Made by a program: the position numbers and the translations under genes. A stretch of 64,000 nucleotides of DNA, from positions 10,475-74,474 of the forward strand of contig PCVY01000064.1 of assembly GCA_002787155.1 (NCBI GenBank). Direction: 5' to 3'. This DNA is from Candidatus Abzuiibacterium crystallinum. Lineage in GTDB: Bacteria; Omnitrophota; Omnitrophia; Omnitrophales; Abzuiibacteriaceae. Under the pieces are notes generated by a model. That model worked only from the letters and a program-made list of their open reading frames with translations. It did not search any database and was not told the origin of the DNA. This document shows, one piece after another, positions 1 through 26,463 of this stretch; within the stretch, counting starts at the first letter, position 1, and each line of letters opens with the position of its first letter.

Positions 1-3000
1 CAGAAGTTTTATGGAGCGCTTTACGTACAGCAGGTATGCTGGATGATGAAGGCCGTCCGACTGAACAATTCAAGAAGTTAAGAGTGCAAATGCGTTTTGA
101 CGGATCTCCTGAACATGTTCAGGCAGTTCTAAAATTGGGCATTCCGGATCAATTTAAATGGTTCCAAAATGACATCATTCGGATGTTGGATGATGCCGGT
201 CGTTCAGAGTTGCGTATCAGCGAAATGGAAGCTTTTCGTGATGAGGTGGAAGAGACAGAAAAGTGGATGAATAGTGACCGCTTTCAAGGTATCAAGCGTC
301 TTTATTCAGCGCGCCAAGTGGTGGAACAGCGCGGAACCATTAAAAAGGTTTATCAGGTGGCACATGACGGAGCTGTCGGAATGTATGCGCGCTTGCGTGA
401 ATTATTTGCTAATCGCGAAACCAACACTACTTACGGGCCTTATTCAGGCGGCCAGATTGTGACCATGAAGCGTTTAATAAAAAATCACATTGTTTATTTA
501 GGCGGTTGGGCAACTTCTGCGCAAGGGGATGACACCGAAGAGCCCGGCGCTGATTTAGCCAGTTATCCTTTAAGCCGTGTTCCGCTTGAAGCGGCTCGTT
601 TGATTCGGGCATTGCTGAAAGCCGATGGCAGCCAACAATATGAGCGAATGCACATGTCTGAATCAGAGCGCAACAAAACAGCCGCATTTGATTTCAGACC
701 TTGGATGATTGCCGATGCGGATACCGGTCACGGCGGGGATGCACACACGCGTAATTTGATCAGGCGTTTTGTGGAAGTGGGCGTGCCGGGTTATCACATT
801 GAAGATCAAAAACCGGGATGCAAGAAATGCGGTCATCAGGGCGGCAAAGTTCTCGTTTCAATTGAAGAGCACATTAAACGCTTAAATGCAGCGCGTTTTC
901 AGCTGGATGTGATGGGTGTGCCGGGTATCGTTGTATCTCGCACGGATTCAGAAGATGCTTCGTTTTTGGATAACAATAGTGACGAACGCGACCACAGTTT
1001 TATTTTAGGAGTTACTAATTTAAATGTTTTGGAGTACAAATTACTGACACTTGCTATTCAAAAACGCTTTTATGATTTGGGTGTTACCACGATCAATGGC
1101 CATGAACTTTATGGTATTACAGATGCGCGCTATCAGGAAGCTATGCAATGGCTCAAAAAACAAGGGCTCTTAGATCAGATTGATGAATTGGTTAAAAGTG
1201 TTGATATGAAGGACAAGGCTAGCGACAGTGATGAAAAAGCCTTGGATAAAGCGACCGCGCTGATGCATGAGAAATGGGTTGAGGAAGCAAATTTAAAAAC
1301 ATACGGGCAGGCAGGTGCTGATGTGATGGCAGAGCGCATCGCAGCAGGCGAGTCGTTCGATATGTCTGTTGAAGAATGGCTCTCTTTTACCAAAAAAGTA
1401 TCCAACCAAGAAGCCCGGGCCAAAGCAAAAGAGCTTGGCATTGAAGTGAGTTGGGATTGGGAATTGGCCCGAACCCCCGAAGGTTACTATCAAATTAAAT
1501 CCGGCATCGAATACGCCATTCACCGCCAGCTTTATTTTGCACCGTTTGCGGACATGCTTTGGATGGAAACCAAGACTGCCAATTTAGAGGAAGCACGCCA
1601 ATTTGCCGAAGGTATTCACGCCGTTTTTCCCGACAAAATGCTAGCCTACAATTTATCGCCTTCCTTTAATTGGGATACCACCGGCATGACGGATGAGGAA
1701 ATGCGCCAATTTCCCGTCGAACTTGGAAAGCTGGGGTATGTTTTTAATTTTATCACTTATGCCGGACACCAAATCGATGGTTTGGCAGCTGAGGAGTTTA
1801 CGCGTGCTTTTATCAAAGATGGCCCCTTGGAACTCGCGCGCGTCCAGCGTCGATTTAGGCTGCATAAATCCCCTTATACCCGGCCACAGAAATTGGTCGG
1901 GGGCGCCATTCAAGATGCAGCGCTCATGGCTTCCACAGGCCGTACGGCTGCTACCAGAGCCATGGGAGGGAAGTCGACTGATAAACAGCATCAAAAACCA
2001 ATTGAATTACCGACTTCGCTTTTAGATGGCTGGCTAGAAACGTGGGTAGAAGTTAACCAATATCCCACAGGGCCTCTCACCGCAGAACTTCAGGCAACTT
2101 TTGATAATCCAGGCGAGTTAATGCTCAATGTTTTTGATCGGGAATTCCAAAGAATTGCCTCAATTATTTTTCGCGATGAAACTGATCGAGAAGGAAAACA
2201 TAATTTATTCATTAAAGATCAGCTCACAGAAGAAGTCTGGCGGAACAAACGCCTCACTACCTTGATGCATTTGTTTTTAATCAAGCGTTTCAAAGCGGAT
2301 ATTGTCAATTATATTCGTCCCACCTTGGCTAACCAAACCATGGCCCGGAGAATGATGAGTCTGGGTTTTTATGTGGAAGCGGCAACGAATGGGGAAGCTA
2401 ATTTAATCATGAGTGCCCACGTCAATATGATGGCAATTGATTCCTTAATTCAATCTGACAAGGCGCTGACAGATTTTATTACAAGGAAAGCTGATGAAAA
2501 ACTCTTGATCACGCAACGAGCTGAACAATTGCAAGCCGATTTGAGCGTGAAACAACTGGAATTAACCAAGGCACGTTTAAATTCTGCGAAAGATGTAGAT
2601 ACCATCACGCAATTGGACGCCGAAGTACGCGAGGCTCTGCGCGCGCTTGATGAGTTTGTTCAATTGGCGGGAGAGCTTGAAGAATTAAAATCAGACGTAT
2701 CACAAACGCCGGCAGACCAAAGGCAGTCATTAGAAGACAAAATTCTAGACATTCGTACCCAGCTTGGTTTAACTGAGCATGCAAGGGGTGAAGCGGTTCA
2801 TTCAGAACTTCGGGAAGAGAAGGTCGAAGTGTCCGGCACGGGAAAACCTGCAAAGGAAAAGGTTGATAATCAATTAAGCATACCCTTTAAACAGCTGCCG
2901 CCCGAACAAAAGATAGAACTGTCCCGCGGCGGAGTCGTTACCGTCAAACAAGCACGGGCCGTTCAAGCTTTGTTGACAAAACTTTTAAGGGAGGATATCT

Positions 3001-4820
3001 CAGCAGTCATCAATCTGCAAATTCTGGCAGAAAAGGGCAGTCATGTGCCCATCAACGAAATACCTGCTGCCACAGAAGGCCAAGCGCCTCAAAAAGTGGT
3101 AGCGGAAGACCAAGTGCAAGCACTGGAAGCAACTAAGTTGGTGAAGGTAGAGCGCGAGAAAGGCGGGAGAGTGACAGTGACTATGCCAACTGTCATTCGA
3201 GCGCTTATCCTTTCTATTTTAAGCGGCGCCCATGTATTTGAGTACGAAGTTGTCCGCGATCCGCGTAAGGGTGCAGGCACGGTTCAAGTGACGGCTCAGC
3301 CAGGTAATGGCCGCCTCGAAAGCAAAACAGCTGCTCTTGCTCTCAAAACTTCACCGGTGATACCGAACGTATCGCCTGAAGTCACAGAAGACGGAGGACT
3401 TTCCCTTGCCGATGCTGATGAACAAGCAGAAAAAGTGCCTGCAAATGCCATTGATTTTATGGCGCTTCGTCAAAGCGTTGCAGATGCTGCTATTCAAATT
3501 ATTATGCAAGCCCATTCCAATAAAGGGGCAGTGGATGACAATCAGCTTCACGTTACCTTTGGGGGTAAAGAAGTGGTTCATGTGGTGTTGCCGGAAAGTT
3601 TATTGGAGTTTGATGATACGTTTGCGAGGGACGCACAAAGGGCAATCGGCGACAAATTTAAAGCGCATGGCGGCTTACTGTTTACCCTAGAGGTTCAAGG
3701 GACAATTATTCATATTAGGCATATCGATGGGACGGGGACGGTCACAAATGATTCCGGAACCCCTGTGGTTGGTTTGCGCGTGGTGGGTGTTAAGAATGAT
3801 GGGCGTTCCGAACTTCGTTTCAGCGATCTTTTAGCTGATCATTTAGAGGTTCTGAAAGGCACCAAAGCACTCGCTGAAAAACAATTGCGCCAATTTAATG
3901 CATTACCCCAAGGTCTTCAATCTACTCAAGAAGAAGATTGGCTGCGCACACAGCTGGGGGAAATTAACGACGCTATCGCTAAATTACTTGCTACCGAGCG
4001 CACCGAACTCCGTAATCATGTCACGCACCCGGAGCATCGGTTTGCAGAAAAGCTACGAATTGGAACCGAATTGGAAGCACTGCAAATGCAGTTAGCCGGA
4101 TTACATCAAAAGCCGGAAAGTGAATTAACTGACACTGAACGGGAGACCATCCAGCAAATTGGAGATGCCATTAAAGCTTTGCAAGATTCTTTAGACCAAC
4201 TTTCAGCTCAGGGCCGCTCGGTTCCGAAACATGCCGAGTTAAGAATTGATTCCAGCACAAATGATATTTCTGTGTTTTTAAGAATCAGTGATCAAATCAA
4301 AACCATGTTTGCACAAGATGAAGAAGCCCACGAACCACAGAGATTGATCGGATGGGTGAGTGGCGTTGTTAATCAATCTGTTAACAGTCAGTCAACCACG
4401 GCCATATCGGAATCGCGTGTTGGGTACGCTGTTTCCCGTGCGGTGGCCTTTGATGAAGCGATGGTCTTTATTTTGGCAGAATTAGCGCGTCATCAAGCTG
4501 CGCCCATCGTCATAGTGACAGATTTTGACACGGATTTAGCCATTGTGAATCAAATCAACGCTACTTTACCGGAAGGGCGCGAAATTCTAACGGCTTCCAA
4601 CGAAGTGGCGGCCGCTAACTTGTTATGGGCAAAGGGTATTCGAAATAGCACTTATCTCACCAGGGAAGAGTTGGACGCAGTGAGATTAAAAAATGTGTTT
4701 AGCCAAATTACCATACTCACAGAAGCAGCCATGAATCGGATTAAATCAGGTATCGATGGTTTAACAGAAATACTGAACCAAGCTGCTCAAGCATATAACA
4801 CCATCGTCACTGCTGTTTAA
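1..4820 (+). CDS. isocitrate lyase-domain giant fusion protein, 5'-partial (ICL catalytic domain with a long-form insertion, then a ~930-aa C-terminal extension of unknown function)
   Basis: The ORF track reports 36..4820, but the frame is open back to nt 3 with no stop, so the gene probably begins upstream of the window. The ICL active-site signature K-K-C-G-H ([12 protein letters not shown]) lies at about nt 823-837. The N-terminal region has a eukaryote/ICL2-like pattern ([37 protein letters not shown]). [19 protein letters not shown] and FNFITYAGH motifs are present. There is a long insertion, typical of long-form ICLs, between the SRTD and NLSPSFNW blocks. The ICL domain ends around nt 2000. 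The remaining ~930 aa have coiled-coil stretches and no domain I recognise. There is no malate synthase signature. Confidence 0.85.
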
Positions 4821-4875: not shown

Positions 4876-4907
4876 TTGGGGTCAGGTCCCGGACCTGACC
4901 CCAGGGG
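4876..4907. repeat. REP-like palindromic element copy 1 (GGGGTCAGGTCC-C-GGACCTGACCCC)
   Basis: Perfect 12-bp arms around a single central base, core 4878-4902, flanked by CTT...AGG. It lies 56 nt after the stop of the upstream giant gene. Confidence 0.85.
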
Positions 4908-4925: not shown

Positions 4926-7900
4926 ATGAAACAAACAGGTTTTGGTTCCAAGTTACTGTCACTTACCCTCAGTTTTAGTTTATTTACCACCTGCTCCGTT
5001 GGTTTTACCGATCCGTCACTTATCTTGGGGTCAGGTCCGGGACCTGACCCCAGGCACCTCACGCGCACCAAAGCAGCCGGTCATTCTCTTTCCGTTATTC
5101 ATCAATTAACCGCGCTTAACCCAGAAATTGCGCGCGATCTTTGGCGCCGTCAACAACTGCCTGCTGCTGTTACGCGGTTTATCGATTTATCTGTCAAATC
5201 CGAACTCAGAAGTTCAAGCAATGACACTTGGGGTCAGGTCCGGGACCTGACCCCAGGAGTTCATCGGGCGGAATCATCTTTTTCGTCTAAAATGAAACAG
5301 GGATCATCCGTCAGGACAGTTATTTTCCTGGCTGTTTTGAGTCTAACAGTTTATCTGGGTTTTTTGCAAGTGGCACGCTTTCCAAGCGGCAACGTAAAAT
5401 TGGATTGGGCGGCAGCCTCTTTGATGCCTGTGATTGTGACGGGTGTTTTTTTGGTAGGCTTATTTCGAAATCATTTATTATCTTCCGGTCGGCTTTTTTC
5501 AATCTCGATTTTGGCCGCTGCTCTTTATGGTTGGACAACTGTTCTCGCCAAGCCGGTTCTTAATTTCCCGATGACCCAAGTGGGTCCGCTTCCTTACATG
5601 ATCACGCTTTGGGGAGCGGCTATTTTGCTCCTGCATTATGTTTACGATCAACTTTTTCGTATGAGTGGTAAAGTCAATGGGTCAACCAACACTTCATTCA
5701 CGAGTAGCTGGTTGGCACGATTGATACCACTCTATACTGATTTCAAAATTCTTTTCAAACTCAAACGAGCCACTTCCCGAAACGGAGCCGATTTAACCTC
5801 CACACAACAAATGTTAACTATGAATCGCCGTGCGGGTTTTCTCAGGGGAACTTTTTGGCATCTCGGACCTTTTGCGCTGGCCTTGTGGGGGTCACTTTTT
5901 TCCCAGACATTGGGCGCAGGGACACTTTATTTAGCACTTTACCAGGGCTTAAATCCAAATGTTTATGGTGTGATGGCCCCGATTGGTATTGTGCTCTTAC
6001 CGGGCCTGTTGGCTGCTTGGTGGCTTGGGGAAAAGTTCACAGCGCGCAAATTGATCGGCTATGCCATGGTCTTTTCAGGCATGGCGGCCATTTCAGCCGT
6101 GAGTTTAACGCAAGCGTCCGTTCAGGTTCCATTCGCAGCTTTAGCGCTTGGTCTATTATCCGCTGTTTTTTATGGATTACGCCAGATATTTCATAAACAG
6201 TTGTTTAATAAAAATCTGGATGCCTTGTCAGCGGGTGAGCATGCGCAACTGGAGATGGCGGTTAATCGATTAGGCTATTTTTTGGGGACGGTTACGATGA
6301 TTGGCATCGCCGTCATTCAGGCGATTGTGGGGAATCAGCCGATCGGGTGGTTTACTTTTCTGGTACCTTCAATGGCTATTTTAACAATCGCCAATATGTT
6401 TGTCTGGACGGGAATGTGGGTTCTGGTCTTTTTTGTTACACGCCATATCCACGCTTCTCGATTAACGCCGATTTTAGCTACTTTTCCGTTCTGGACCATG
6501 CTCTGGCAGTGGGTTGTGACCGGTCAATTAAACCCAAGTTTAATTGCAATCGGCGGACTTGTGCTTGCAGGCGGCATTTTGGCATCTTATCAAAAGCCCA
6601 CGCAGGTTGACGGTGGTAGCCGATCGGAATTACGGACTTCTGCCGGGATGTCATTGTTTTCCAAACCCCATTTAAGAACCATTTATATTATTTCACACGT
6701 TATCCTTTTTGGTGTGGGACTTTTGGCTTTTCCGACCCTGTCACTGCTGGCATACGAATCAATTCATATAGGGGCAGTGATTAATTTGATGTTTTTTGCC
6801 AGCTTTGTTTTGATTGGTAATGCGTTCATTCATCAGATTTATCAATGGTATGGTTATCGTTTCAATTTTAAGAAACTTGGCGCCGCCATCACATTGAGTC
6901 TGGTGTCGGGTGCGGTCACTCTCTTGGGCGTGATGCTGATTAATGAGCTATTCCCGCTGGGGCAGGAGTTTGCGGGAACAACCTTTAGATTACCATTGGG
7001 ATTTGGACGCGTTCAAATTGATTTTGCACACCCGTTAATTGCACATACGGTGGTTGCGATACCGCGTGTTCTCATGGCGATTGTTTTAGAGGCTTTAAAC
7101 TTGTTGCTATTGGATTTGCCTTTTCGCTTTTATCGTGACCAGCTTAAAAGCCGGCACGAAGGAACGCAATCAAATTTGAAAAAACGAGAAGCATTTTATC
7201 TTTCACGTTTGTATTCACTGGCAGCTTATTATTTTATTTTGGTGTGGCTGCCAAATTACACTTCTGTTTTGTTCATTGGTTTAGTTTTACAACTGCTTCG
7301 TTTGTTTTTACATGTGTCGGCTAATCGAAAGTCTTATTGGGTAAAATCTTGGTTCATACAAAACCACCGTACTTTGCTCGTTATTTTTCCGCTTTTCTAT
7401 CCTTTCGTCAAACTAGCCCGTTCGTTGCATTGGCTGATAACGCCGAAAGAAACGATTAGCGTAGAGGCCAAATCACGTGTTCTGGCAAGCGCTGTGTGGC
7501 ATGCTTATGAACAATACCAGAAGGAACTTCAAGCACTCAATGACAGGGCATTATCGTTGTTTGAACAAGGCGATTGGGCTCACCTGCAGGTAGATTATCA
7601 GCGCCGGCTTGATTTATATAGCCAATCAATCGAAAATGCCAGCCTGGAAATTAGCCGACAAATTGGGAATGGCTTTATCTCAGAGCAAACCATTTGGGAT
7701 CAAGCACGCACGCATTTTGATGTGTTGGTGATTAATCCTTTGGATAAAAAGTTAGCGGATGCCTTTTTTTATACGGTCAAACGGCGCTTTATTCCGGGAA
7801 CTGAAAGCGATATTCGTTTTATTGCTGAAGACGTCCATCTGTTTAGAGGTTCTGAAGACGTGCTGGAACCGGTATTTACCTCTTACAAAAGAAAAGTTTC

Positions 7901-10900
7901 TACCCGGGCAGCGGTAGAAACCATCCTGAGTCATTATGGTTTTAAAATTCCTTATGAAGATCACGAGCGGGATGTGAATCACATTACCGACCTGGTTAAT
8001 AGACAATTACACTTAGAAGAAGGTGAACCAAATGCGAAAGTTGAGCGTTTTGAAATGCTCAATCCCATCTTTACACGATTTAAGAAAATTTACATTGTCG
8101 GAAGAATTCGAGTGAAAGCCAATACCATTCCTTTGGTATTGGTTTTTGACAACCACAGCCAGAAATTAGTATTGGATCAGGTGGTGATGGAGAGCCTGGA
8201 TGTGAGCCGCTTGTTTGGCTTTACACATTCTCAATTTACGGTGGTGACGGATAACTACCAGGCATTGGTTAACTTTCTTCATGAATTGATGCCGCGCAAA
8301 CATCTTTCGCAAATTTATCGGGTGATCGGCCAATACAATTTGGCTAAGGCCGAAATTCTAAAGGATCTATTCAATCTGATTCGTAAACGGCAAGAACGTT
8401 TTCGCTTGAGTGAGGGAGTGAAAGGTAAAGTTGTCATCAGTTTTTCGCTTCCATCTTCTGACATGATGATTAGAGTGCTTAAAGATAGGCCTGATAAACC
8501 TTTATCACCTCGTGAATTCGAAGCAAAACACTACTTTGCCCGCCATGTTTATAAAGCCGGACGCATCGTAGAAATGATCGGCTTACGAAATGTCAGATTT
8601 CCGAAAGCGGCGTTTGAAGCGGATGTTCTTAAAGAATTATTGGAAAAATCAACAGATCCTGAAAACGGTATTGTCGAAGACGGAGAGTTTATAATTTTAA
8701 AACGTTTTTTTGTCCAAAGATATGTAATCCCTCTAGACATTTTCTTTCAACGGGAGAAAGATCCGGAGATCAGACGCCGCATTCTATTGGATTTAGGTCA
8801 ATTGCATAAAGATTTGGCCAGGGTGAATATTTTTAATGTGGATTTTCTCCCTCACAATCATGGTGTTATTGCAGCAGGAACAGCCAATATGCGCGTTGTT
8901 TTATTTGACCTTGATGCCATTGAATTGTTGACCGATCAAAACTTTCTGAGCGTACCCAGATATTCACGGCCTGTTGATGACGGGGACTTTGATTTGGATT
9001 ATTTTATGTATGGCGGTGATGCGGAAGATATGCGAATGGCGGCGCCCTCGAATGATCAGTACCCCGAACAATTCGAACTCTTAAAAGATATACCTCTTGA
9101 CTTAGTAACCGAATTTATGAGAGTTCATGGTGATTTAATACAGCCGGATTTTTATCTTGCCACCCAACGTGATCTCTGGCAGCAAGCTGATGAATTAGTG
9201 CGCACTTTTCCGTATTCTCTGCTGGCGCGGCGGAGAGCCAACCCCATTCACTCAGAATTGCGGCATTTTTCTTTAGCTGAAAGACTCCAAACGCAGGAGT
9301 TCGTTGTGACAACCGAATTGGATGAACCCGACATGACGCCTGATTACTGGAAATTAATCGACCAAGGCTGGGTGCACGGCATGACCATTACGGATTTACC
9401 TTTGATTTCTAAGGTAGAAGATTTATTGAAACGATACCAAGCAAAGAAAACCATTCGCCAAAACCCGTTTGCCATTTTACACCAAACAACAGGTGCAATC
9501 GTCACTGTTGCCGCCGGTGCGCGTTTTCGAGGTAATATCAGGAACCGCATTTTAAGAATGGTGGAAGAGAATGCGGGCGGGATTTTAGCGGTAGCCAGCG
9601 GTGGTTTGATCAGGCGCTTGGCAAGGGTATTGTGGCTAGAATGGCTTCTGCCCATGAATTCATTTAAAATTTTACGAATGGTAAAAAAAATGAAACAAGC
9701 AGGTATCATTCCTAAAGATTTTCTTATCATGGGTGTTGAAAATCCTTTAATTGGGGACCCCGTTACACAGGTTGACCGGCTGGAGGAGAAAATCGAAGCC
9801 GGAGCAGAAGCCATTATGACCCAGCCGCCGCTTTTATGGCATCAATTTGAAGCTTGGTGGCGAGAAGTTGAGAAGAGAGGATTAAACCGAAGGGTGCCTA
9901 TCATTATTGGTTTTCCGTTTATTACTTCACCGGCAAATTTAAGATTTTGGTATTTTCTGACAGGCGTATCTTCACATCACTTAGAAGCACAAGCTTTGCT
10001 AAGTGAGTTTGAAGAAAAACAAAATGAAGGCGCAGAAGCGTTTGCCAAGTTTCGCCAAGAATTTTCAGAAGGCTTACTAAGAAAAATACGGACATTGCCG
10101 CATGCAGCTGGTATTCATCTTTTTCCTTTGAAAGGCATGCCGCAAGTGATCCCAACGCTTAAAGCCAATGATTTAAGGCCGCCTTTACACCATATCCGAA
10201 GGATTGACCGGCTCATTGGTTTATATGATGAACTGGGCGTTCAGCTGGATATTGAAAATGTGGCTTACAAAGATGAGCATGTCAAGCACCTTGAAGGTGT
10301 CTTGTCTGTGATCTACGGCGTGATTAAGAACTTTGATGATAGACCTAAACGAATAACTATTAACCGAGTTTTTTATAAACAGCATTTTTTAGATAGTGTG
10401 ATGGTAAGAGATATCGTTGGTTCTTCTGATTGGGAACTGACCATCGATTTAAAATCATTTGAAAGAGATAAACTATTTAATATCAAACGCTTAAGACATC
10501 AAGTACAGCAAAAGATCTTAGATCGCAAACGTCCTGAAAGAAAAAAGGAAATTTTTATTACAGCGGGGCCATTTAAACGGTATGCGCATAGTTTGATACG
10601 GCAATGGAATGAAGCTTTTTGGCAGCATGTCAAAGCCATGATGAAAGCATTAAAGCGGGATTATCGAGATACGATCGCCGGTTCGCCTGATACGGAAGCG
10701 CCGATTCTTCATTACAATGCGGAACGGTTTTTGTTGGAAGATCTTTTACCCCTCCGCGAACAAGAAAAACAAACGGGAGTGCCTCCTCAGCCGGTGGCGT
10801 ATGTAGAAGGCGGTGTGGCAAGCATTGATTATGCGCGCGGATTTGTGGATCAATTAAAGAAATTGGCAGAAGACCGCGGTTTGGCCGATTTGCTTACCAA

Positions 10901-13517
10901 CGTCACTTATGTGTTAGCTGACCTTTCTTCTTCCATTATTGAACAAGCCAAACAGGAATTAGGCAAAAGCCGTAATGGAATCAAGTTTGACATGTTGCAG
11001 CTGGATGCCGCCAATCCAACCCAAGCACTTGAGAAATATCAAGGTCAAATATTGCGCGGTCATCTAACCAATATCTTAGACAACTTGCCGACCGATTATT
11101 TTGTCCGCCGAGAAACAAAGTCATACATTGTTGAAAGCAGGCCGCGTTGGTCGAAACCTGAAATCATTGCTTTGGCGCGGCAATATCAAATCAAAGAAGA
11201 TGAATTGATCAAGGATTTGCAGAATTTATCCGAAACGGGTGTTCAACATTTCCTGGGAAAATACAGACAATCTTTTCATCGAAGTGCCTATCGGACACCC
11301 GAGCAGTCGGATGAGTTATTCTACCGATTTTGGTATGACTTGTATGGCAATAAAGACAGGCCCGGAACGGGACTGCGGCTAGAAGAACAGCTGGTACCCA
11401 TTAACGATCTTGAGCAATTTCATTTTCTATCTCAAACCGAACTTTCGGGAGCATTGCTAGCCGAAGCCTTAGATGAAGTAGAAGGCGACATCCGTATGCC
11501 GCTTTCTAATCATGCCATTGACGCGGTCTTGGCTTGGCAAAAGTTGCTACATCCGGACGGCGTGATCGAAATCTTTGATATCGTGGTTGATAGATTTGAG
11601 GATTTCCAAACCAAAGAAAATCGACCGAACAAAACAGCAAAATATGACGGCTCGGCCGTTGATTGGATCAATGGAGCACTTTTGCGCGTCATTGGCAAAG
11701 CTCTCATTCCGGGTTTTCACATGACGGTCGAAAATCTAGGCCGTTTCGGTAAACGCTTCAAAACCATGTCCTTGGTCGAAATTCGCCAAAATCAAGAAGT
11801 CACCGTTAAACCGCGAGCAGAACTACGCGTATCATCGGTCCAGGATCGATTAATTGATTTAACCGCTGAAGCGGAAGCGCAAGGGATTGACTTAGATGCT
11901 ATTGCACAAACGCTGAAACAGGAAGACTACTATGTTGAAGACTTGGTGCGCGAAGTTTTGCGGGATGCCATTCAATTTCATCCTTCGGCCGATTTGCTTA
12001 CAGCCGACAATCTCAAAAGGTTGGTTTCTTTACTTGAAATAATTGGTTTGAAGCGGATTGAACCGGTTTCATTTGTTCGGACGGATGACAAAGGCGTTCC
12101 ACTCATGCGATTTTCGCCTGAAGTCGCCGAATTTATGCGTGAGCGAAAGCAAAAAGGGTCATCATTAATCGTGTCGTACCTGGTGTTTAAGCGTGACGGC
12201 GTAGAAGCGGTTTTACAACATGACCCAACTGCCTCTCAAATTGCAATCAACATAGCGCTTTCACCCAATTATGGGGCGTCCAATACGTTGTCGCAAAGCC
12301 AACATGAGTTTTTTGATAATCGATTAGCACCACAGCTTGACTGGCTCGAAGAGATCAATGAAGCACGGCGAGAAATATCTGATTCTAAACTTAAACCCGT
12401 GGGCGTGAGTGCTTATTTAAGTAATGCATGGGGTGCTCAGGATTTAACGATTGATTTTGATGACGAAAAAGCATTTACCGGCTGGCTTGAAGAAATCAAA
12501 GGTTGGATACGAAAGTTTCAAGCGAAAGAAATCGAGGAAGTGGTGTTAAGCGATACCACCGGTGAAGCCAGACCGGCGGATATTACAAAACTATTTAGCG
12601 CTCTCATTCAAGATACGGAATTTAAAGATATCAAATTTGCTTTTCACGGACATGACAGCGGTAACGGTCTTTTAAATGTTTTTGCCGCGCTAAAGGCGGG
12701 TGTTCGGATGATTGATACTTCCATTGGGAATTTAGGCGGCTCGCCTTTCTCTGAAACCACACATACCTATAAAGGACGGAAACCAGGTAACATCACGACC
12801 GAGGATTTAATTTTTTTACTCAAAGCGAAAGGCGTTCCGACGAATATCGATTTTGATCGTCTTTTAGAAGTTGTTCGGGAGTTTGAACGTATTTTGAGTG
12901 ATAATTTTGTTGAAAATACCCGCGTGTTGGGTTTGCACCACTTGCCATTGGCAGAAAGAGAAGATCTATTTAAATTGATGGGACCAAAGGCAAGACGTTC
13001 AGAACTGAAAGCAGTAGAACCAGTTTTAACACAAGCGCCGGCAGCTTTTAGTAATCGTTTACGTTCAGAACTTCGATTGATGTTGGTGCCGCCCTCAACC
13101 GTGACGGCACAAAACATTGGCTTGGCATTCGGCAGGCGAGACACCTTTGAAGTATTAACGCCGGTTCTTTTGCAGCAATTGGCAAGCGCTGGAATTCCTG
13201 TGGTTGTGATTGCGCCCACATCGATTGAAAAAGGCGTCATTGATCAAATCAATCACCAGACGGCAAATGAACATGCTATCTTGATTGCTGAGAGTCTGCA
13301 GGAGGCAGCCTATCAATTAAAAAGGCAGCAAATAGAAGAAACCCGCTTTGTCAGCACCGAGCGCTCAGACCTTGATCTTGCGGCACCTTTTTTTAACGTG
13401 GTTGCTTACTTGCCCAAAGAACAGCTTACCGGGTGGGTATTGTCACAAGTGAAAGCAATTGCCGTCATGATGCAACAATCCCGCGCTAATTACGAAAGAC
13501 TCTTACAAGCCGCTTAG
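4926..13517 (+). CDS. giant multidomain membrane protein (2863 aa as called): EamA/DMT-like permease modules + AceK-like isocitrate dehydrogenase kinase/phosphatase domain + MetF (MTHFR)-like domain + Rossmann methyltransferase-like region + HMG-CoA-lyase-like DRE-TIM metallolyase domain
   Basis: This is an uninterrupted 8.6-kb ORF. The first 122 codons contain two REP palindromes, so the true start is probably the in-frame ATG at 5292 (MKQGSSVRTVIFLAVLS...). About 5292-7400 encodes many TM helices with EamA-type module ends (GEKFTARKLIGYAMVFSGMAA; TGQLNPSLIAIGGLVLAGGILAS). About 7490-9270 encodes an AceK-like domain (FEQGDWAHLQ vs E. coli FEQADWHAVQ; NIFNVDFLPHNHG...VVLFDLDAI vs NIFPGDMLFKNFG...VVFYDYDEI; LARRRANP vs YRRRQRF). 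About 9460-10180 is MetF-like (KIEAGAEAIMTQ...VPIIIGFPFITS...AGIHLFPLKG). About 10795-11740 is Rossmann methyltransferase-like. About 12160-12960 is HMGL-like (FKRDGVEAV; FHGHDSGNGLLNVFAALKAGVRMIDTSIGNLGGSPF...TEDLIFLLKAKG). Confidence 0.8.
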   Translation: MKQTGFGSKLLSLTLSFSLFTTCSVGFTDPSLILGSGPGPDPRHLTRTKAAGHSLSVIHQLTALNPEIARDLWRRQQLPAAVTRFIDLSVKSELRSSSNDTWGQVRDLTPGVHRAESSFSSKMKQGSSVRTVIFLAVLSLTVYLGFLQVARFPSGNVKLDWAAASLMPVIVTGVFLVGLFRNHLLSSGRLFSISILAAALYGWTTVLAKPVLNFPMTQVGPLPYMITLWGAAILLLHYVYDQLFRMSGKVNGSTNTSFTSSWLARLIPLYTDFKILFKLKRATSRNGADLTSTQQMLTMNRRAGFLRGTFWHLGPFALALWGSLFSQTLGAGTLYLALYQGLNPNVYGVMAPIGIVLLPGLLAAWWLGEKFTARKLIGYAMVFSGMAAISAVSLTQASVQVPFAALALGLLSAVFYGLRQIFHKQLFNKNLDALSAGEHAQLEMAVNRLGYFLGTVTMIGIAVIQAIVGNQPIGWFTFLVPSMAILTIANMFVWTGMWVLVFFVTRHIHASRLTPILATFPFWTMLWQWVVTGQLNPSLIAIGGLVLAGGILASYQKPTQVDGGSRSELRTSAGMSLFSKPHLRTIYIISHVILFGVGLLAFPTLSLLAYESIHIGAVINLMFFASFVLIGNAFIHQIYQWYGYRFNFKKLGAAITLSLVSGAVTLLGVMLINELFPLGQEFAGTTFRLPLGFGRVQIDFAHPLIAHTVVAIPRVLMAIVLEALNLLLLDLPFRFYRDQLKSRHEGTQSNLKKREAFYLSRLYSLAAYYFILVWLPNYTSVLFIGLVLQLLRLFLHVSANRKSYWVKSWFIQNHRTLLVIFPLFYPFVKLARSLHWLITPKETISVEAKSRVLASAVWHAYEQYQKELQALNDRALSLFEQGDWAHLQVDYQRRLDLYSQSIENASLEISRQIGNGFISEQTIWDQARTHFDVLVINPLDKKLADAFFYTVKRRFIPGTESDIRFIAEDVHLFRGSEDVLEPVFTSYKRKVSTRAAVETILSHYGFKIPYEDHERDVNHITDLVNRQLHLEEGEPNAKVERFEMLNPIFTRFKKIYIVGRIRVKANTIPLVLVFDNHSQKLVLDQVVMESLDVSRLFGFTHSQFTVVTDNYQALVNFLHELMPRKHLSQIYRVIGQYNLAKAEILKDLFNLIRKRQERFRLSEGVKGKVVISFSLPSSDMMIRVLKDRPDKPLSPREFEAKHYFARHVYKAGRIVEMIGLRNVRFPKAAFEADVLKELLEKSTDPENGIVEDGEFIILKRFFVQRYVIPLDIFFQREKDPEIRRRILLDLGQLHKDLARVNIFNVDFLPHNHGVIAAGTANMRVVLFDLDAIELLTDQNFLSVPRYSRPVDDGDFDLDYFMYGGDAEDMRMAAPSNDQYPEQFELLKDIPLDLVTEFMRVHGDLIQPDFYLATQRDLWQQADELVRTFPYSLLARRRANPIHSELRHFSLAERLQTQEFVVTTELDEPDMTPDYWKLIDQGWVHGMTITDLPLISKVEDLLKRYQAKKTIRQNPFAILHQTTGAIVTVAAGARFRGNIRNRILRMVEENAGGILAVASGGLIRRLARVLWLEWLLPMNSFKILRMVKKMKQAGIIPKDFLIMGVENPLIGDPVTQVDRLEEKIEAGAEAIMTQPPLLWHQFEAWWREVEKRGLNRRVPIIIGFPFITSPANLRFWYFLTGVSSHHLEAQALLSEFEEKQNEGAEAFAKFRQEFSEGLLRKIRTLPHAAGIHLFPLKGMPQVIPTLKANDLRPPLHHIRRIDRLIGLYDELGVQLDIENVAYKDEHVKHLEGVLSVIYGVIKNFDDRPKRITINRVFYKQHFLDSVMVRDIVGSSDWELTIDLKSFERDKLFNIKRLRHQVQQKILDRKRPERKKEIFITAGPFKRYAHSLIRQWNEAFWQHVKAMMKALKRDYRDTIAGSPDTEAPILHYNAERFLLEDLLPLREQEKQTGVPPQPVAYVEGGVASIDYARGFVDQLKKLAEDRGLADLLTNVTYVLADLSSSIIEQAKQELGKSRNGIKFDMLQLDAANPTQALEKYQGQILRGHLTNILDNLPTDYFVRRETKSYIVESRPRWSKPEIIALARQYQIKEDELIKDLQNLSETGVQHFLGKYRQSFHRSAYRTPEQSDELFYRFWYDLYGNKDRPGTGLRLEEQLVPINDLEQFHFLSQTELSGALLAEALDEVEGDIRMPLSNHAIDAVLAWQKLLHPDGVIEIFDIVVDRFEDFQTKENRPNKTAKYDGSAVDWINGALLRVIGKALIPGFHMTVENLGRFGKRFKTMSLVEIRQNQEVTVKPRAELRVSSVQDRLIDLTAEAEAQGIDLDAIAQTLKQEDYYVEDLVREVLRDAIQFHPSADLLTADNLKRLVSLLEIIGLKRIEPVSFVRTDDKGVPLMRFSPEVAEFMRERKQKGSSLIVSYLVFKRDGVEAVLQHDPTASQIAINIALSPNYGASNTLSQSQHEFFDNRLAPQLDWLEEINEARREISDSKLKPVGVSAYLSNAWGAQDLTIDFDDEKAFTGWLEEIKGWIRKFQAKEIEEVVLSDTTGEARPADITKLFSALIQDTEFKDIKFAFHGHDSGNGLLNVFAALKAGVRMIDTSIGNLGGSPFSETTHTYKGRKPGNITTEDLIFLLKAKGVPTNIDFDRLLEVVREFERILSDNFVENTRVLGLHHLPLAEREDLFKLMGPKARRSELKAVEPVLTQAPAAFSNRLRSELRLMLVPPSTVTAQNIGLAFGRRDTFEVLTPVLLQQLASAGIPVVVIAPTSIEKGVIDQINHQTANEHAILIAESLQEAAYQLKRQQIEETRFVSTERSDLDLAAPFFNVVAYLPKEQLTGWVLSQVKAIAVMMQQSRANYERLLQAA
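5024..5054. repeat. REP-like palindromic element copy 2 (GGGGTCAGGTCC-G-GGACCTGACCCC)
   Basis: Same 12-bp arms as copy 1, core 5027-5051, with the same CTT/AGG flanks. It translates as GSGPGPDP in both orientations, which explains the overlapping + and - ORFs in the track. Confidence 0.85.
5227..5257. repeat. REP-like palindromic element copy 3
   Basis: Identical to copy 2, core 5230-5254, and 35 nt upstream of the in-frame ATG at 5292. Confidence 0.85.
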
Positions 13518-25743: not shown

Positions 25744-26463
25744 TTAAATCCTTAAATTCCAACCATGGTTTGAATATTTTTCTCTCACCAATCGTTCGAC
25801 TTCTTTAAGCGGTATTTTTGATAAAGGCGCATACGCGCCCCAATTTAATTGAAGAGCATTTTTGATAGCTTGCACATTCAAAGAAACATTGGTCAGAAAA
25901 TCTTGATGCGAACGTTGATGGCGGTACTCCGGTTGGCGTTTTGGATTTTGTAAATATTTTGAAATCTTTGCAATATCAAAGTTGATTAAAAAAGAACCAT
26001 GAAACAAAGCGGCATAACGGCCGCGCCGTTGTGCATTGCCGGAGAACTTCAGGTGATTGATGGCGAGGTCGGTAATGCCTTCCACAGTTACCTCTTGAGA
26101 CAGGAGGGAGCGGAAGACAGCTTGATGCTGTTGCATGATCCAGTGATTGGTTTGGGTGATGTTACGCGAATCAGGGCCCGTTGACAGGGCAGTGATTAAT
26201 GAAAAATTTAAACAGCCGGGTCCCTGCAAAACGGTACCGCCGCCGCTCATGCGGCGCAAAATCGAAATGCGGTCTTGCGCGCAGGCGTCCAAAATAACAT
26301 CAGCAGTGTGATGGCAGCCGTAGCCTAAAACGACAAAATATTGTTCGGGCTGCCAAAACCGGAGAATTTCTTTAGGCGTTTCTTGGTCACACCCGTTGAG
26401 CAGAGCCTCATCGAGGGCAAGATTTTCTTCGGGAGACGGTAAAGTTAGATCGATAAATTCCAT
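25744..26463 (-). CDS. lipoate-protein ligase / octanoyltransferase family protein (BPL_LplA_LipB)
   Basis: RRMSGGGTVLQGPGCL matches the LplA/LipB-type adenylate/octanoyl-binding motif. It is the only - strand gene and is divergent from the PDH genes. Confidence 0.65.
   Translation of the reverse strand: MEFIDLTLPSPEENLALDEALLNGCDQETPKEILRFWQPEQYFVVLGYGCHHTADVILDACAQDRISILRRMSGGGTVLQGPGCLNFSLITALSTGPDSRNITQTNHWIMQQHQAVFRSLLSQEVTVEGITDLAINHLKFSGNAQRRGRYAALFHGSFLINFDIAKISKYLQNPKRQPEYRHQRSHQDFLTNVSLNVQAIKNALQLNWGAYAPLSKIPLKEVERLVREKYSNHGWNLRI

What the first reader, a model, noticed from the sequence alone, without database searches (positions are those of the whole stretch)
5292..13517. 2863-aa membrane-anchored megaprotein combining AceK-like IDH kinase/phosphatase, MetF-like, methyltransferase-like and HMG-CoA-lyase-like domains, immediately downstream of the ICL fusion
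Directly seen in the sequence, the segments along the protein are: (i) about 500 aa of EamA/DMT-type permease repeats plus further TM helices. (ii) A domain with conserved AceK blocks, including the catalytic-loop and Mg-binding equivalents (D.L.HN.G ... FDLD). (iii) A MetF/MTHFR-like TIM barrel. (iv) A Rossmann methyltransferase-like region. (v) A DRE-TIM metallolyase domain very similar to HMG-CoA lyase (RDG; FHGHDSGNG...GNLGG). In E. coli the glyoxylate shunt is aceB-aceA-aceK. Here ICL is followed by a single polypeptide that carries the AceK-like regulator plus an acetyl-CoA-dependent Claisen-type lyase/synthase fold. That fold could in principle substitute for malate synthase (glyoxylate + acetyl-CoA) or cleave a CoA ester. 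Fusion to a membrane transporter-like domain suggests a metabolite-sensing or channeling megacomplex. I know of no described AceK fused to other enzymes or to a membrane domain.
Basis: partly seen in the sequence, partly recalled or inferred. Interest (0 to 1): 0.9.

Follow-up and report, generated by a model that had tools for sequence, protein, structure and literature searches.

The report
Motif-punctuated enzyme string, probable bacterial polyprotein
A real 2863-residue gene of an uncultured Omnitrophota bacterium strings membrane modules, an AceK-like regulator and an HMG-CoA-lyase-like enzyme on one chain, and a five-residue peptide ([R/H/K]-[S/A]-E-L-R) marks every module border here and in the two neighbouring giant genes, which suggests, but does not show, that the chain is cut into separate enzymes like a viral polyprotein.

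Summary
The ORF is real: 4926..13517, + strand, 2863 aa. The identical protein is annotated in a Candidatus Omnitrophica MAG and was read on 11 contigs.

AceK (E 1e-58 and 2e-37) and an HMGL-like DRE-TIM domain (E 1e-13) are confirmed. The MetF-like, methyltransferase-like and EamA-like calls are weak or unsupported.

Malate synthase lies in a third giant gene just upstream of the window. The order aceB-aceA-aceK is therefore kept, and the HMGL-like domain need not replace malate synthase.

The pentapeptide [RHK]-[SA]-E-L-R sits at every module border. It occurs 42 times in 15,656 aa of eight related giants (0.36 expected) and 0 times in 14,705 aa of ordinary genes in this window. Its codons vary. 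All these giants share a signal-peptide-like leader and a C-terminal Rossmann-like domain of about 140 aa.

Other AceK-bearing giants, two of them named Candidatus Omnitrophota by NCBI and the rest unnamed, use other delimiters: G[AS]RLA, D.AML[AG] and GFG.

Best reading: the delimiter is a recognition site, most probably for a processing protease. Cleavage is inferred, not shown. The AceK domain has Arg at the otherwise near-invariant ATP-binding lysine.

The parts
4926..13517 (+). Complete ORF of the 2863-aa protein (called M in this report), stop codon included.
   Evidence: The identical protein P0001 was read on 11 contigs.
4926..5210 (+). Leader, aa 1-95. It has a signal-peptide-like hydrophobic start, conserved HLTRTKA and IDLS blocks, and ends with the first delimiter, KSELR (5196-5210).
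   Evidence: It aligns with the leaders of P0008, P0019 and P0015. Homologous leaders occur on U, I, L4b and L4c.
5211..6620 (+). Membrane module 1, aa 96-565, with about 10 hydrophobic segments. It may belong to the DMT/EamA superfamily.
   Evidence: It is 44% identical to P0002 aa 773-1204. EamA E 0.26. EmrE E 0.02. Hydropathy.
6621..6635 (+). Delimiter RSELR, aa 566-570.
6636..7469 (+). Membrane module 2, aa 571-848, with 5-8 hydrophobic segments. It is joined to AceK with no delimiter between them.
   Evidence: M aa 566-1446 aligns with P0008 aa 95-1030 at 31% identity, E 2e-123. Hydropathy.
7470..9230 (+). AceK-like isocitrate dehydrogenase kinase/phosphatase domain, aa 849-1435. The equivalents of D457, N462, D475 and D477 are kept as D1306, N1311, D1328 and D1330. 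K336 is replaced by R1183 (nt 8472-8474) and K461 by H1310.
9249..9263 (+). Delimiter HSELR, aa 1442-1446.
9264..11813 (+). Module of unknown function, aa 1447-2296. It contains a short local MTHFR-like match (aa 1611-1696, nt 9756-10013). No significant methyltransferase match.
   Evidence: No PDB sequence match. The structure model failed.
11814..11828 (+). Delimiter RAELR, aa 2297-2301.
11958..12896 (+). HMG-CoA-lyase-like DRE-TIM metallolyase domain, aa 2345-2657. R2346, D2347, E2379, H2574 and H2576 are kept. The C266 equivalent is S2606.
12996..13076 (+). Two delimiters, RSELK (aa 2691-2695) and RSELR (aa 2713-2717), with a 17-residue spacer between them.
   Evidence: The first 15 residues of the model that starts at SELR are predicted unstructured.
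13077..13514 (+). Shared C-terminal alpha/beta (Rossmann-like) domain, aa 2718-2863, ending in ..QAA.
1..4820 (+). The neighbouring ICL giant gene (I). It is 1720 aa in full and starts 342 nt before the window. It has the same plan, with delimiters at 201-215, 2799-2813, 3804-3818, 3999-4013 and 4230-4244, and the C-terminal domain at 4245-4817.
4877..4903 (.). Perfect 12-bp G+C-rich hairpin in the 105-nt spacer between the ICL giant and M.
   Evidence: A similar hairpin follows the upstream giant U.

Best explanation
M is the third of three consecutive 'string-of-enzymes' genes of an Omnitrophota bacterium.
- U carries malate synthase and class I aldolase.
- I carries isocitrate lyase.
- M carries two membrane modules, an AceK-like domain, an unknown module and an HMGL-like lyase.

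Each gene is built on one plan: a signal-peptide-like leader, then complete enzyme-sized modules, then a common Rossmann-like C-terminal domain. Every border is marked by the pentapeptide [R/H/K]-[S/A]-E-L-R.

Shown:
- The modular plan.
- The extreme enrichment of the pentapeptide, its restriction to the giants, and its position at module borders.
- That selection acts on the peptide, not on the DNA.
- Its conservation in a related organism whose modules are arranged differently.
- The existence of other delimiters in other giants of this kind.

Inferred:
- The delimiter is read by a trans-acting factor that co-evolves with it. This is most probably an endopeptidase that cuts the precursor into separate enzymes, so the genes act as operons fused at the protein level.
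- After release, or while still tethered by membrane module 2, the AceK-like module would control isocitrate dehydrogenase. It would thereby control flux into the glyoxylate shunt made by the ICL and malate synthase modules of the two preceding genes.
- The HMGL-like module would cleave a 3-hydroxy-3-methyl-acyl-CoA-type ester to yield acetyl-CoA.
For: - Motif statistics. [RHK][SATPL]ELR occurs 42 times in 15,656 aa of eight giants against 0.36 expected. In this window it occurs 10 times in 4,457 aa of giants and 0 times in 14,705 aa of ordinary ORFs, Fisher p = 5e-7. SELR/AELR is the most enriched 4-mer in each giant in an unbiased scan.
- Peptide-level selection. Leu and Arg codons differ between copies. 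Nothing is conserved beyond the five residues. The flanks are rich in S, P and Q and poor in aromatic residues.
- Position. The motifs bracket Pfam domains. In M, AceK ends at aa 1435 and the motif is at 1442; a motif at 2297 precedes HMGL at 2345. In P0008 the order is SELR400, AceK 425-1007, SELR1027. In P0083 it is AMLA396, AceK 407-962, AMLV965. In P0019, TauE, AceK and a methyltransferase each lie between motifs. Where AceK directly follows a delimiter (P0008, P0083), the module ends match the native ends of free-standing AceK. In M the C-terminal end does; the N-terminal side is joined to membrane module 2.
- Flexibility. The motif and the 11 residues after it are predicted unstructured ahead of the C-terminal domain.
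- Module shuffling with the motif kept. The related contig L004 (81% identity in the best segment) carries iPGM, enolase, PrpD, citrate synthase and RidA in one giant, malate synthase alone in a second, and malate synthase plus ICL in a third. All are delimited by R[SA]ELR.
- Delimiters are the same in all giants of one genome or contig and differ between giants from different sources. They are G[AS]RL[AS] 13 times in P0053 (GARL 11 against 0.2 expected), [GA]ARL[AS] in P0139, D.AML[AG] in P0083 (AML 12 against 0.97), and GFG 10 times against 1.18 in the three giants of L005.
- Functional linkage. The order MS/ICL, then AceK, then a DMT-like module plus an acyl-CoA enzyme recurs in L005. P0003 carries AceK, malate synthase and ICL on one chain.
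- Published work states that cleavage is suspected but that no cleavage points are known.
Against: - No cleavage has been observed and no cognate protease was identified. The shared C-terminal domain has no conserved Ser, His, Cys or Asp-type triad and looks like a HAD-type Rossmann-like core.
- The leader looks like a Sec signal peptide. If it works as one, it would place the cytoplasmic-type enzymes of U and I outside the cytoplasm. It would also put some delimiters on each side of the membrane in M, which one protease could not easily reach.
- Some borders lack a delimiter: membrane module 2 to AceK in M, and malate synthase to ICL in L4c. So at least some fusions work uncut.
- From memory, uncleaved ICL-malate synthase fusions exist in nematodes.
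- The AceK module has Arg at the ATP-binding lysine, which is K in 119 of 121 homologues. Its kinase activity is therefore uncertain.
- No IDH gene was seen in the window.
Confidence: 0.5

Rival explanations
1. Uncleaved membrane-anchored multi-enzyme protein (a metabolon on a string). The chain stays intact. The pentapeptide is a linker cap, or a docking site for a scaffold, chaperone or partner, rather than a cut site. The membrane modules hold AceK and the lyase at the membrane.
For: - The membrane module plus AceK is a conserved unit (M aa 566-1446 aligns with P0008 aa 95-1030).
- Some borders have no delimiter.
- Preprints read Omnitrophota multi-enzyme giants as membrane-anchored proteins.
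- From memory, uncleaved multi-enzyme chains such as AROM and the nematode ICL-malate synthase fusion are known.
Against: - A passive linker need not keep five exact residues while its flanks drift.
- A passive linker need not change in concert in all giants of a genome.
- Module content and order are shuffled between close relatives. That fits independent units better than a fixed assembly line.
- In P0053 one delimiter lies 12 residues from the C-terminus, where nothing is left to link.
- From general knowledge, enzymes that form different oligomers (ICL, aldolase, citrate synthase, enolase) would be strained on one chain.
Confidence: 0.3
2. Exported enzyme arrays. The leader is a working Sec signal. 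The chains are moved across the inner membrane and processed outside the cytoplasm at the delimiters. The enzymes act in the periplasm, on the cell surface or in a host or prey cell, in keeping with the proposed epibiotic lifestyle of Omnitrophota.
For: - The leaders have a basic start, a hydrophobic core and small residues before a conserved YPDIP or YSS stretch.
- Nearly all giants end in small-Ala, a type of C-terminus that, from memory, PDZ-bearing periplasmic proteases bind (and sequences).
- Preprints classify 39% of long Omnitrophota proteins as signal peptide plus transmembrane helices, and 9% as signal peptide only.
Against: - AceK, ICL, malate synthase, aldolase, enolase and citrate synthase need ATP, CoA esters or phosphorylated intermediates. 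From general knowledge these are not available outside the cytoplasm.
- No secretion or injection genes were seen next to the giants. The ORFs scanned, up to 54.4 kb, are ordinary housekeeping genes.
Confidence: 0.1
3. Artefact: an assembly chimera, a run of fused pseudogenes, or a chance open frame.
For: None found. The source is a metagenome-assembled genome.
Against: - The identical 2863-aa product was read on 11 contigs, and the two places shown come from different ENA samples.
- There is no stop in 8.6 kb at 45% G+C.
- Significant domain matches lie along the length of the protein.
- Homologues with the same plan exist in other organisms.
Confidence: 0.01

Closest known systems
Omnitrophota giant 'multi-enzyme metabolic cluster' proteins (bioRxiv 10.64898/2026.06.07.730766) and Archaeovorin-type giant proteins (West-Roberts et al., bioRxiv 10.1101/2023.11.21.568195)
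   Same: - Same phylum.
- Many unrelated enzyme domains tile one polypeptide.
- Signal peptide and/or many transmembrane helices.
- Cleavage into smaller products has been suspected.
   Different: - The proteins here are 1.2-3.3 kAA, not 10-147 kAA.
- They carry central-carbon enzymes: the glyoxylate shunt, AceK, aldolase, enolase and citrate synthase. One preprint scored the shunt (K01637 ICL, K01638 aceB) as absent in all 176 of its complete genomes.
- Neither text mentions a delimiter motif, a shared leader or a shared C-terminal domain. 'Motif' and 'linker' occur 0 times in the 2026 text, and the 2023 text says cleavage points are unknown.
E. coli aceBAK operon and AceK (PDB 3eps, 3lc6)
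   Same: - Gene order: malate synthase, isocitrate lyase, AceK.
- Both AceK Pfam domains are present.
- Full-length alignment to 3eps.
- Catalytic D457, N462, D475 and D477 are kept.
   Different: - Each enzyme is embedded in a giant multi-module gene.
- The AceK domain is about 25% identical to the canonical proteins and scores below NCBI's equivalog cut-off (340.7 against 488 bits).
- K336 is Arg and K461 is His.
- A membrane module is attached to its N-terminus.
Viral polyproteins (for example picornavirus 3C or coronavirus 3CL sites) - general knowledge
   Same: - Several complete proteins are translated as one chain.
- A short, lineage-specific peptide recurs at every junction.
- The junction peptide differs between lineages while the plan stays the same.
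   Different: - This is a cellular chromosome encoding central-metabolism enzymes.
- No protease module was identified in the chain.
- Cleavage is not demonstrated.
HMG-CoA lyase / DRE-TIM metallolyase superfamily (PDB 6nds, 1ydo, 2cw6)
   Same: - The Pfam HMGL-like match is above its cut-off.
- The R-D and E signature and the HxH metal ligands are present.
- The best matches are HMG-CoA lyases.
   Different: - It scores 87.7 bits against a subfamily cut-off of 246.
- The N-terminal half is divergent and contains an insertion.
- The C266 equivalent is Ser.
- The substrate is unknown. From memory, R-citramalyl-CoA lyase of Chloroflexus belongs to the same family and would link the domain to glyoxylate assimilation. 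This is a lead, not a result.
Uncleaved multifunctional enzymes (nematode ICL-malate synthase fusion, fungal AROM) - general knowledge
   Same: Consecutive pathway enzymes sit on one chain. L4c carries malate synthase and ICL with no delimiter between them.
   Different: As far as I know, those proteins have no repeated junction motif, no common leader and no common C-terminal domain.

Membership tests
AceK (isocitrate dehydrogenase kinase/phosphatase) | Both Pfam domains (PF20423 regulatory, PF06315 kinase) score above their gathering scores and lie in the native order. | tested here: met
   199 bits against a cut-off of 25, and 129.8 bits against 29.3, at aa 854-1430. The domain aligns to 3eps residues 13-551 of 578.
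AceK (isocitrate dehydrogenase kinase/phosphatase) | NCBIfam equivalog score (NF002804). | tested here: not met
   340.7 bits against a cut-off of 488.
AceK (isocitrate dehydrogenase kinase/phosphatase) | Catalytic-loop Asp and Asn, and the two Mg-binding Asp residues (E. coli D457, N462, D475, D477). | tested here: met
   D1306, N1311, D1328 and D1330. These columns are conserved in 115-120 of 121 homologues.
AceK (isocitrate dehydrogenase kinase/phosphatase) | ATP-binding lysine (E. coli K336). | tested here: not met
   R1183, codon AGA. The column is K in 119 of 121 sequences, and M is the only one with R.
AceK (isocitrate dehydrogenase kinase/phosphatase) | A phosphorylatable isocitrate dehydrogenase substrate in the same genome. 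| not testable with these tools
   No IDH gene in the 64-kb window or in the fetched flanks. The rest of the genome is not available.
HMG-CoA lyase / DRE-TIM metallolyase | Pfam HMGL-like above its gathering score, with the D-R-E signature and the HxH metal ligands. | tested here: met
   51.8 bits against a cut-off of 29. R2346, D2347, E2379, H2574 and H2576 are present.
HMG-CoA lyase / DRE-TIM metallolyase | HMG-CoA lyase subfamily score (NF004283) and the active-site Cys (human C266). | tested here: not met
   87.7 bits against a cut-off of 246. The Cys equivalent is S2606.
MTHFR / MetF | A match to the TIM-barrel model over most of its length, above the gathering score. | tested here: inconclusive
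   20.3 bits on the whole protein (cut-off 24). 24.9 bits on the isolated segment, but only profile positions 157-236 of 287. No PDB sequence match. The model is unusable.
SAM-dependent methyltransferase | A significant match to a Rossmann-fold methyltransferase model. | tested here: not met
   The best matches are Methyltransf_12 and Methyltransf_25, E 0.12-0.16. No homology to the true methyltransferase module of P0019.
EamA / DMT transporter superfamily | A significant match to EamA repeats or to a DMT structure. | tested here: inconclusive
   EamA E 0.26 over profile positions 4-132 of 135. EmrE E 0.02-0.05 with profile A4. About 10 hydrophobic segments.
Omnitrophota multi-enzyme giant proteins (2026 preprint, class 1) | [quoted passage not shown] | tested here: met
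Omnitrophota multi-enzyme giant proteins (2026 preprint, class 1) | Length of at least 10,000 aa (the catalogue threshold). | tested here: not met
   2863 aa.
Polyprotein (processed precursor) | A conserved short site at each junction between complete functional units. | tested here: met
Polyprotein (processed precursor) | Demonstrated proteolytic cleavage at those sites. | not testable with these tools
   This needs proteomics or expression experiments.
Polyprotein (processed precursor) | A cognate protease, either within the chain or encoded elsewhere. | tested here: inconclusive
   No protease domain in U, I or M. The C-terminal domain is a HAD-like Rossmann-like fold without conserved catalytic residues. 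The only peptidase among the window ORFs scanned (up to 54.4 kb) is a prepilin peptidase at 42804-43592.

The most novel reading that the evidence does not exclude
These genes are true cellular polyproteins. Central-carbon enzymes (malate synthase, ICL, AceK, aldolase, enolase, citrate synthase and others) are translated as one chain. They are then cut at a lineage-specific pentapeptide ([RHK][SA]ELR here; G[AS]RLA, D.AML[AG] and GFG in other giants) by a dedicated protease that co-evolves with its site. The delimiters would then give the first map of cleavage points for Omnitrophota giant proteins in general.
Probability: 0.45. Interest if true: 0.9.

Novelty: new variant of a known kind. Interest (0 to 1): 0.75.

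Why it matters
Two preprints on giant genes of Omnitrophota leave open whether the products work as one chain or are cut. One of them says explicitly that no cleavage points are known.

The delimiter peptides found here turn that question into a concrete test. They predict exactly where the new termini should lie. They can be searched for in existing metaproteomes, and they can be mutated.

Their change from one lineage to another offers a handle for finding the factor that reads them, by co-variation.

If cleavage is confirmed, this would be a cellular counterpart of viral polyproteins applied to core metabolism. It would also change how these genomes are annotated. For example, a glyoxylate shunt hidden inside giant ORFs could be missed by whole-protein orthology calls. 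That is my inference: one preprint scored the shunt absent in its 176 genomes, and I did not test those genomes.

Even without cleavage, the shared leader, delimiter and C-terminal domain define a family-wide building plan that has not been described in the papers searched.

Tried and rejected
- The search for homologous proteins was used three times: with the whole protein, with the AceK region, and with a profile of the C-terminal domains. It returned only 3, 4 and 0 hits. Even the source protein was missed in the last two searches, because only the 8000 candidates sharing the most words are scored.
- Two genome-contig scans found no relative among GTDB species representatives. One used the whole protein, the other the C-terminal-domain alignment A3.
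- PDB sequence searches of aa 1443-1825 and aa 1802-2301 found nothing significant.
- AF2 on aa 1447-2297 without an alignment gave pLDDT 38, so no fold search was run on it.
- The afdb50 fold library was not available.
- The C-terminal domain as a built-in protease: rejected. Only L, D and A are invariant, and the fold is a HAD-like Rossmann-like core.
- The delimiter as a DNA-level repeat or recombination site: rejected, because the codons vary.
- The delimiter as a phosphorylation site for AceK: rejected, because the Ser is Ala in a third of the copies.
- A repeated linker domain: rejected, because the flanks are not conserved.
- The 5292 start: rejected.
- Literature searches found no description of the delimiters or of AceK fusions. 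The terms were Omnitrophota with giant genes, polyprotein with Omnitroph, and Velamenicoccus with giant protein or proteome.
Full report
**Names used in this report**
- M is the 2863-aa protein of the finding.
- I is the ICL-containing giant gene immediately upstream of M.
- U is the giant gene upstream of I, outside the window.
- L4a, L4b and L4c are three giant genes on a related contig, locus L004.
- L005 is a locus from another lineage.
- P-numbers are proteins returned by the database searches.

**1. The observation**

The + strand carries one uninterrupted ORF from 4926 to 13517, 2863 aa.

That start is correct. Residues 1-95 align block for block with the N-terminal leaders of three homologous proteins, P0008, P0019 and P0015.

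The identical protein is P0001, which NCBI lists as a hypothetical protein of 'Candidatus Omnitrophica bacterium CG11_big_fil_rev_8_21_...'. It was read on 11 contigs, and the two places shown come from different ENA samples. An assembly chimera is therefore excluded.

The rest of the window is an ordinary bacterial chromosome. Among the ORFs scanned, up to 54.4 kb, normal-sized genes encode:
- a DsbA-like protein, riboflavin synthesis enzymes, NusB and CobO;
- a TonB-dependent receptor;
- pyruvate dehydrogenase E1, E2 and E3;
- enzymes of branched-chain and aromatic amino-acid synthesis;
- TopA, XerC/D, KdtA and LpxK.

**2. Domain claims**

*AceK: confirmed.* AceK_regulatory covers aa 854-1154 (E 1.3e-58) and AceK_kinase covers aa 1157-1430 (E 1.7e-37). 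The region aligns with E. coli AceK (PDB 3eps) from residue 13 to 551 of 578.
- In an alignment of 121 AceK-like kinase regions, M keeps the equivalents of D457, N462, D475 and D477.
- M has Arg (R1183, codon AGA) at the K336 position, which is Lys in 119 of the 121. It has His at the K461 position.
- It scores below NCBI's equivalog cut-off, 340.7 against 488 bits.
- It is about 25% identical to canonical AceK proteins.

*HMGL-like: confirmed.* The Pfam match covers aa 2345-2649 and scores 51.8 bits against a cut-off of 29. HMG-CoA lyase structures are the best PDB matches, with E values down to 8e-19.
- The R-D pair (R2346, D2347), E2379 and the HxH ligands (H2574, H2576) are present.
- The Cys266 equivalent is Ser.

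*MetF-like: weak.* The call rests on a local match of about 85 residues. It scores 20.3 bits on the whole protein and 24.9 bits on the isolated segment, and covers 28% of the profile.

*Methyltransferase-like: not supported.* The best E values are 0.12-0.16.

*EamA-like: weak.* EamA scores E 0.26, and EmrE scores E 0.02 with a two-sequence profile.

The region aa 1447-2297 has no PDB sequence relative. Its single-sequence AF2 model is unusable, with pLDDT 38.

**3. The surroundings change the picture**

Fetching the source contig showed two things.
- The ICL gene really starts 342 nt before the window and is 1720 aa long.
- A third giant gene, U (2008 aa), precedes it. U carries a malate synthase TIM barrel and a class I fructose-bisphosphate aldolase.

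The order malate synthase, ICL, AceK is the order of E. coli aceB-aceA-aceK, but each enzyme sits inside a giant gene.

The same neighbourhood recurs in another lineage, locus L005:
- a 4023-aa giant with malate synthase and ICL;
- then a 1081-aa AceK protein, P0055;
- then P0002 (2140 aa), whose membrane module is 44% identical to M aa 128-557 and which ends in enoyl-CoA hydratase domains.

P0003 (4875 aa) has AceK, malate synthase, ICL and an aldo-keto reductase on one chain.

**4.

Reading the translations, I saw 'SELR' again and again. In M the pentapeptide [RHK]-[SA]-E-L-R lies at aa 91, 566, 1442, 2297 and 2713, and a variant, RSELK, lies at 2691. In the window part of I it lies at five sites.

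These positions are the module borders:
- after the leader;
- between the two membrane modules;
- 7 residues after the end of the AceK match;
- 44 residues before the HMGL match;
- just before the C-terminal domain.

U has seven copies.

*Statistics.*
- Across eight giants (U, I, M, L4a, L4b, L4c, P0008, P0019) the pattern occurs 42 times in 15,656 aa, against 0.36 expected from composition.
- In the window it occurs 10 times in the 4,457 aa of the two giants and never in the 14,705 aa of the 39 ordinary ORFs. Fisher p = 4.6e-7.
- An unbiased k-mer scan ranks SELR or AELR first in each giant.

*Selection acts on the peptide.*
- Codons differ between copies. Leu is TTG, CTT, CTC, TTA or CTA; Arg is CGT, CGG, AGA, CGC or CGA.
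- Nothing outside the five residues is conserved.
- The flanks are enriched in S, P and Q and depleted in aromatic residues, as expected of linkers.
- In the AF2 model that starts at the last SELR, the motif and the next 11 residues are unstructured. They are followed by a confidently folded domain.

**5. A common building plan**

All the giants share two further elements.

*A leader.* It has a basic start, a hydrophobic stretch, small residues, a conserved block (YPDIP or YSS..SLVRPE), and then the first delimiter at residue 60-100.

*A C-terminal domain of about 140 aa.*
- M against P0008: 39% identity, E 4e-25. M against P0019: E 4e-22.
- Weaker but alignable similarity to U, I, L4a and L4b.
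- With the two window copies as its alignment, AF2 gives pLDDT 80.2 and pTM 0.72, with a beta-alpha fold of five strands.
- Only L, D and A are invariant. I therefore do not regard it as an enzyme, and in particular not as the protease.

Nearly all complete giants end in small-Ala (QAA, IAA, AAAA, KMA, QSA, QFA, KSA, VAA, AAA, LSA, VSA, WAA, SSA). I is the exception, with TAV. Only 5 of 39 ordinary ORFs in the window end in Ala.

**6. Conservation and shuffling**

A JGI contig from a related organism, L004 (81% identity in the best segment), carries three giants with the same leader, the same delimiter and (where the end is on the contig) the same C-terminal domain, but with different module content:
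- L4a, at least 3309 aa: iPGM, enolase, PrpD, a Macro domain, citrate synthase and two RidA domains.
- L4b, 1155 aa: malate synthase alone.
- L4c, at least 954 aa: malate synthase and ICL, with no delimiter between them.

The delimiters flanking the orthologous malate synthase module are kept, while the adjoining linkers and the neighbouring modules differ. The modules behave as independent cassettes bounded by the pentapeptide.

**7. Other delimiters**

The exhaustive HMMER search with the AceK region found 887 relatives. About 17 of the best 150 cluster representatives are longer than 900 aa. NCBI names two of them (P0015, P0076) Candidatus Omnitrophota. The other eight looked up carry no name.

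| Protein or locus | Delimiter | Count against expectation |
|---|---|---|
| P0008, P0019, P0015 | RSELR, with the same leader (P0008 and P0019 also the same C-terminal domain; P0015 is partial) | - |
| P0053 (6037 aa) | G[AS]RL[AS] | 13 copies; GARL 11 against 0.2, p = 4e-16 |
| P0139 (5421 aa) | [GA]ARL[AS] | 11 copies |
| P0083 (4536 aa) | D-x-A-M-L-[AG] | AML 12 against 0.97 |
| Three giants of L005 | GFG | 10 against 1.18 |

These delimiters also bracket Pfam domains.
- In P0083 the order is AMLA396, AceK 407-962, AMLV965. The AMP-binding and His-phosphatase domains also lie between delimiters.
- In P0019, TauE, AceK and a methyltransferase each lie between delimiters.

Three of the four delimiters share a core of small residue, any residue, Leu: [SA]-E-L, [AS]-R-L and [AS]-M-L.

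The delimiter is the same in all giants of one genome or contig and differs between giants from different sources.

**8. Interpretation**

A five-residue peptide that is strictly kept, that is confined to the junctions of giant genes, and that changes in concert in all giants of a genome is most simply read as a site recognised by a trans-acting factor that co-evolves with it.

The most likely factor is an endopeptidase. The genes would then be polyprotein precursors, in effect operons fused at the protein level. These points favour that reading:
- In P0008 and P0083, where AceK directly follows a delimiter, the module ends coincide with the native termini of the free-standing enzyme. In M the C-terminal end does; the N-terminal side is joined to membrane module 2.
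- Module content is shuffled between close relatives.
- One delimiter in P0053 lies 12 residues from the C-terminus, where nothing is left to link.
- From general knowledge, enzymes that form different oligomers would be awkward to fold on one chain.

These points count against it:
- No cleavage is shown.
- No protease was found.
- Some junctions have no delimiter: membrane module 2 to AceK in M, and malate synthase to ICL in L4c.
- The leader looks like a Sec signal. Taken at face value, that would export cytoplasmic-type enzymes, and it would place delimiters on both sides of the membrane in M.

I put the polyprotein reading at about 0.5. I put an uncleaved membrane-tethered multi-enzyme protein, with the motif as a docking or linker element, at about 0.3. 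I put exported enzyme arrays at about 0.1, and an artefact at about 0.01.

**9. What M itself would do (inferred)**
- The AceK-like module would act on isocitrate dehydrogenase. This rests on its conserved catalytic Asp and Asn residues and its conserved linkage to malate synthase and ICL in three lineages. It would set the split between the TCA cycle and the glyoxylate shunt.
- Its Arg at the ATP-binding lysine makes normal kinase activity uncertain.
- It is attached to a conserved membrane module (M aa 566-1446 aligns with P0008 aa 95-1030). It may therefore work at the membrane unless it is released.
- The HMGL-like module has the DRE-TIM catalytic set and probably cleaves a 3-hydroxy-acyl-CoA to give acetyl-CoA.
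- In L005 the corresponding place is taken by an enoyl-CoA hydratase. This suggests a shared role in supplying acetyl-CoA from acyl-CoA esters.
- Membrane module 1 may be a DMT-type transporter.
- The function of aa 1447-2296 is unknown.

**10. Comparison with what is known**

Multi-enzyme, membrane-associated giant proteins of Omnitrophota have been described in two preprints. M is a small member of that general kind.

I did not find any of the following in those preprints, or in any other paper in the library:
- the delimiter peptides and their lineage-specific forms;
- the common leader and C-terminal domain;
- the glyoxylate shunt plus AceK carried by such genes.

The 2023 preprint states that information on cleavage points is lacking. 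The 2026 text never uses the words 'motif' or 'linker', and it scored the shunt absent in its 176 genomes.

I therefore rate this as a new variant of a known kind. It makes an open question, whether the chains are cut or stay intact, directly testable.

Noticed in passing
L003:1381-7407 (upstream of the window; in window coordinates about -4,700 to -456): A third giant gene, U (2008 aa). Its order is leader, malate synthase, three short unknown modules, class I aldolase, an unknown module, then the shared C-terminal domain. It has seven delimiters.
   Followed up: yes
window 4877-4903; also L001 about 4625-4660: Perfect G+C-rich hairpins lie in the short spacers between the giant genes. The one before M is a 12-bp stem with an A-run before it, so it looks like a terminator only on the - strand. 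The one after U is followed by a T-rich tract. Their role (terminator, attenuator or RNA stabiliser) is unknown.
   Followed up: partly
C-termini of U, I, M, L4a, L4b, P0002, P0003, P0008, P0014, P0016, P0019, P0053, P0055, P0139: Nearly all giants of this kind end in small-Ala (..QAA, ..SA, ..AAA), against 5 of 39 ordinary ORFs in the window. This resembles the non-polar C-terminal tails bound by PDZ-bearing or tail-specific proteases and by ClpX (from memory). It could be the handle for the processing machinery.
   Followed up: partly
window 4926-5010 (M aa 1-28), and the leaders of U, I, L4b, L4c, P0008, P0015, P0019: The leaders look like Sec signal peptides with a signal peptidase I-type site. 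Yet U and I have no other hydrophobic segment, apart from one marginal stretch in I, and they carry enzymes that need cytoplasmic substrates. This topology paradox is unexplained.
   Followed up: partly
P0002 aa 1-455, P0003 aa 1-600, P0014, P0016, P0053 aa 1-544, P0139 aa 1-590: Giants that use the other delimiters, or that show none (P0003, P0014, P0016), start with a conserved domain of about 500 aa. It carries the blocks (V/L)IHIQDxH and (I/L)(T/V/S)GG(F/Y/L)HT. Pfam finds nothing, tested on P0053 only. From memory the blocks recall TraB/TIKI-type proteases, which would make the domain a candidate processing enzyme. Not tested.
   Followed up: no
window 8472-8474 (M R1183): The AceK-like domain has Arg at the ATP-binding lysine, the only such case among 121 homologues. 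The first AceK copy of P0015 is clearly degenerate (Q, N, S at catalytic positions). P0009 and P0015 each carry two AceK copies.
   Followed up: partly
L004:13547-16408 (L4c): Malate synthase and ICL are fused directly with no delimiter between them. From memory, this is the same enzyme pair as in the bifunctional nematode glyoxylate-cycle protein.
   Followed up: partly
window 23786-25303: A 505-aa ORF whose only match is a weak ribosomal L7/L12 C-terminal domain near its N-terminus (E 2e-5). Otherwise unknown.
   Followed up: no
window 1-64000: All convincing genes lie on the + strand, and the cumulative GC skew rises steadily over the first 20 kb profiled. The only - strand ORF of at least 150 aa that is not nested in a + strand gene is 25744-26463. 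This is consistent with a long stretch of co-oriented genes on the leading strand.
   Followed up: no
window 42804-43592: A prepilin (type IV leader) peptidase gene lies among the aromatic amino-acid synthesis genes. It is the only peptidase among the window ORFs scanned (up to 54.4 kb). There is no evidence linking it to the delimiters.
   Followed up: no
window 40341-41891: A normal, stand-alone LeuA (HMGL-like plus LeuA_dimer) is encoded in the same window. The DRE-TIM module inside M is therefore an additional, divergent paralogue and not the organism's isopropylmalate synthase.
   Followed up: partly
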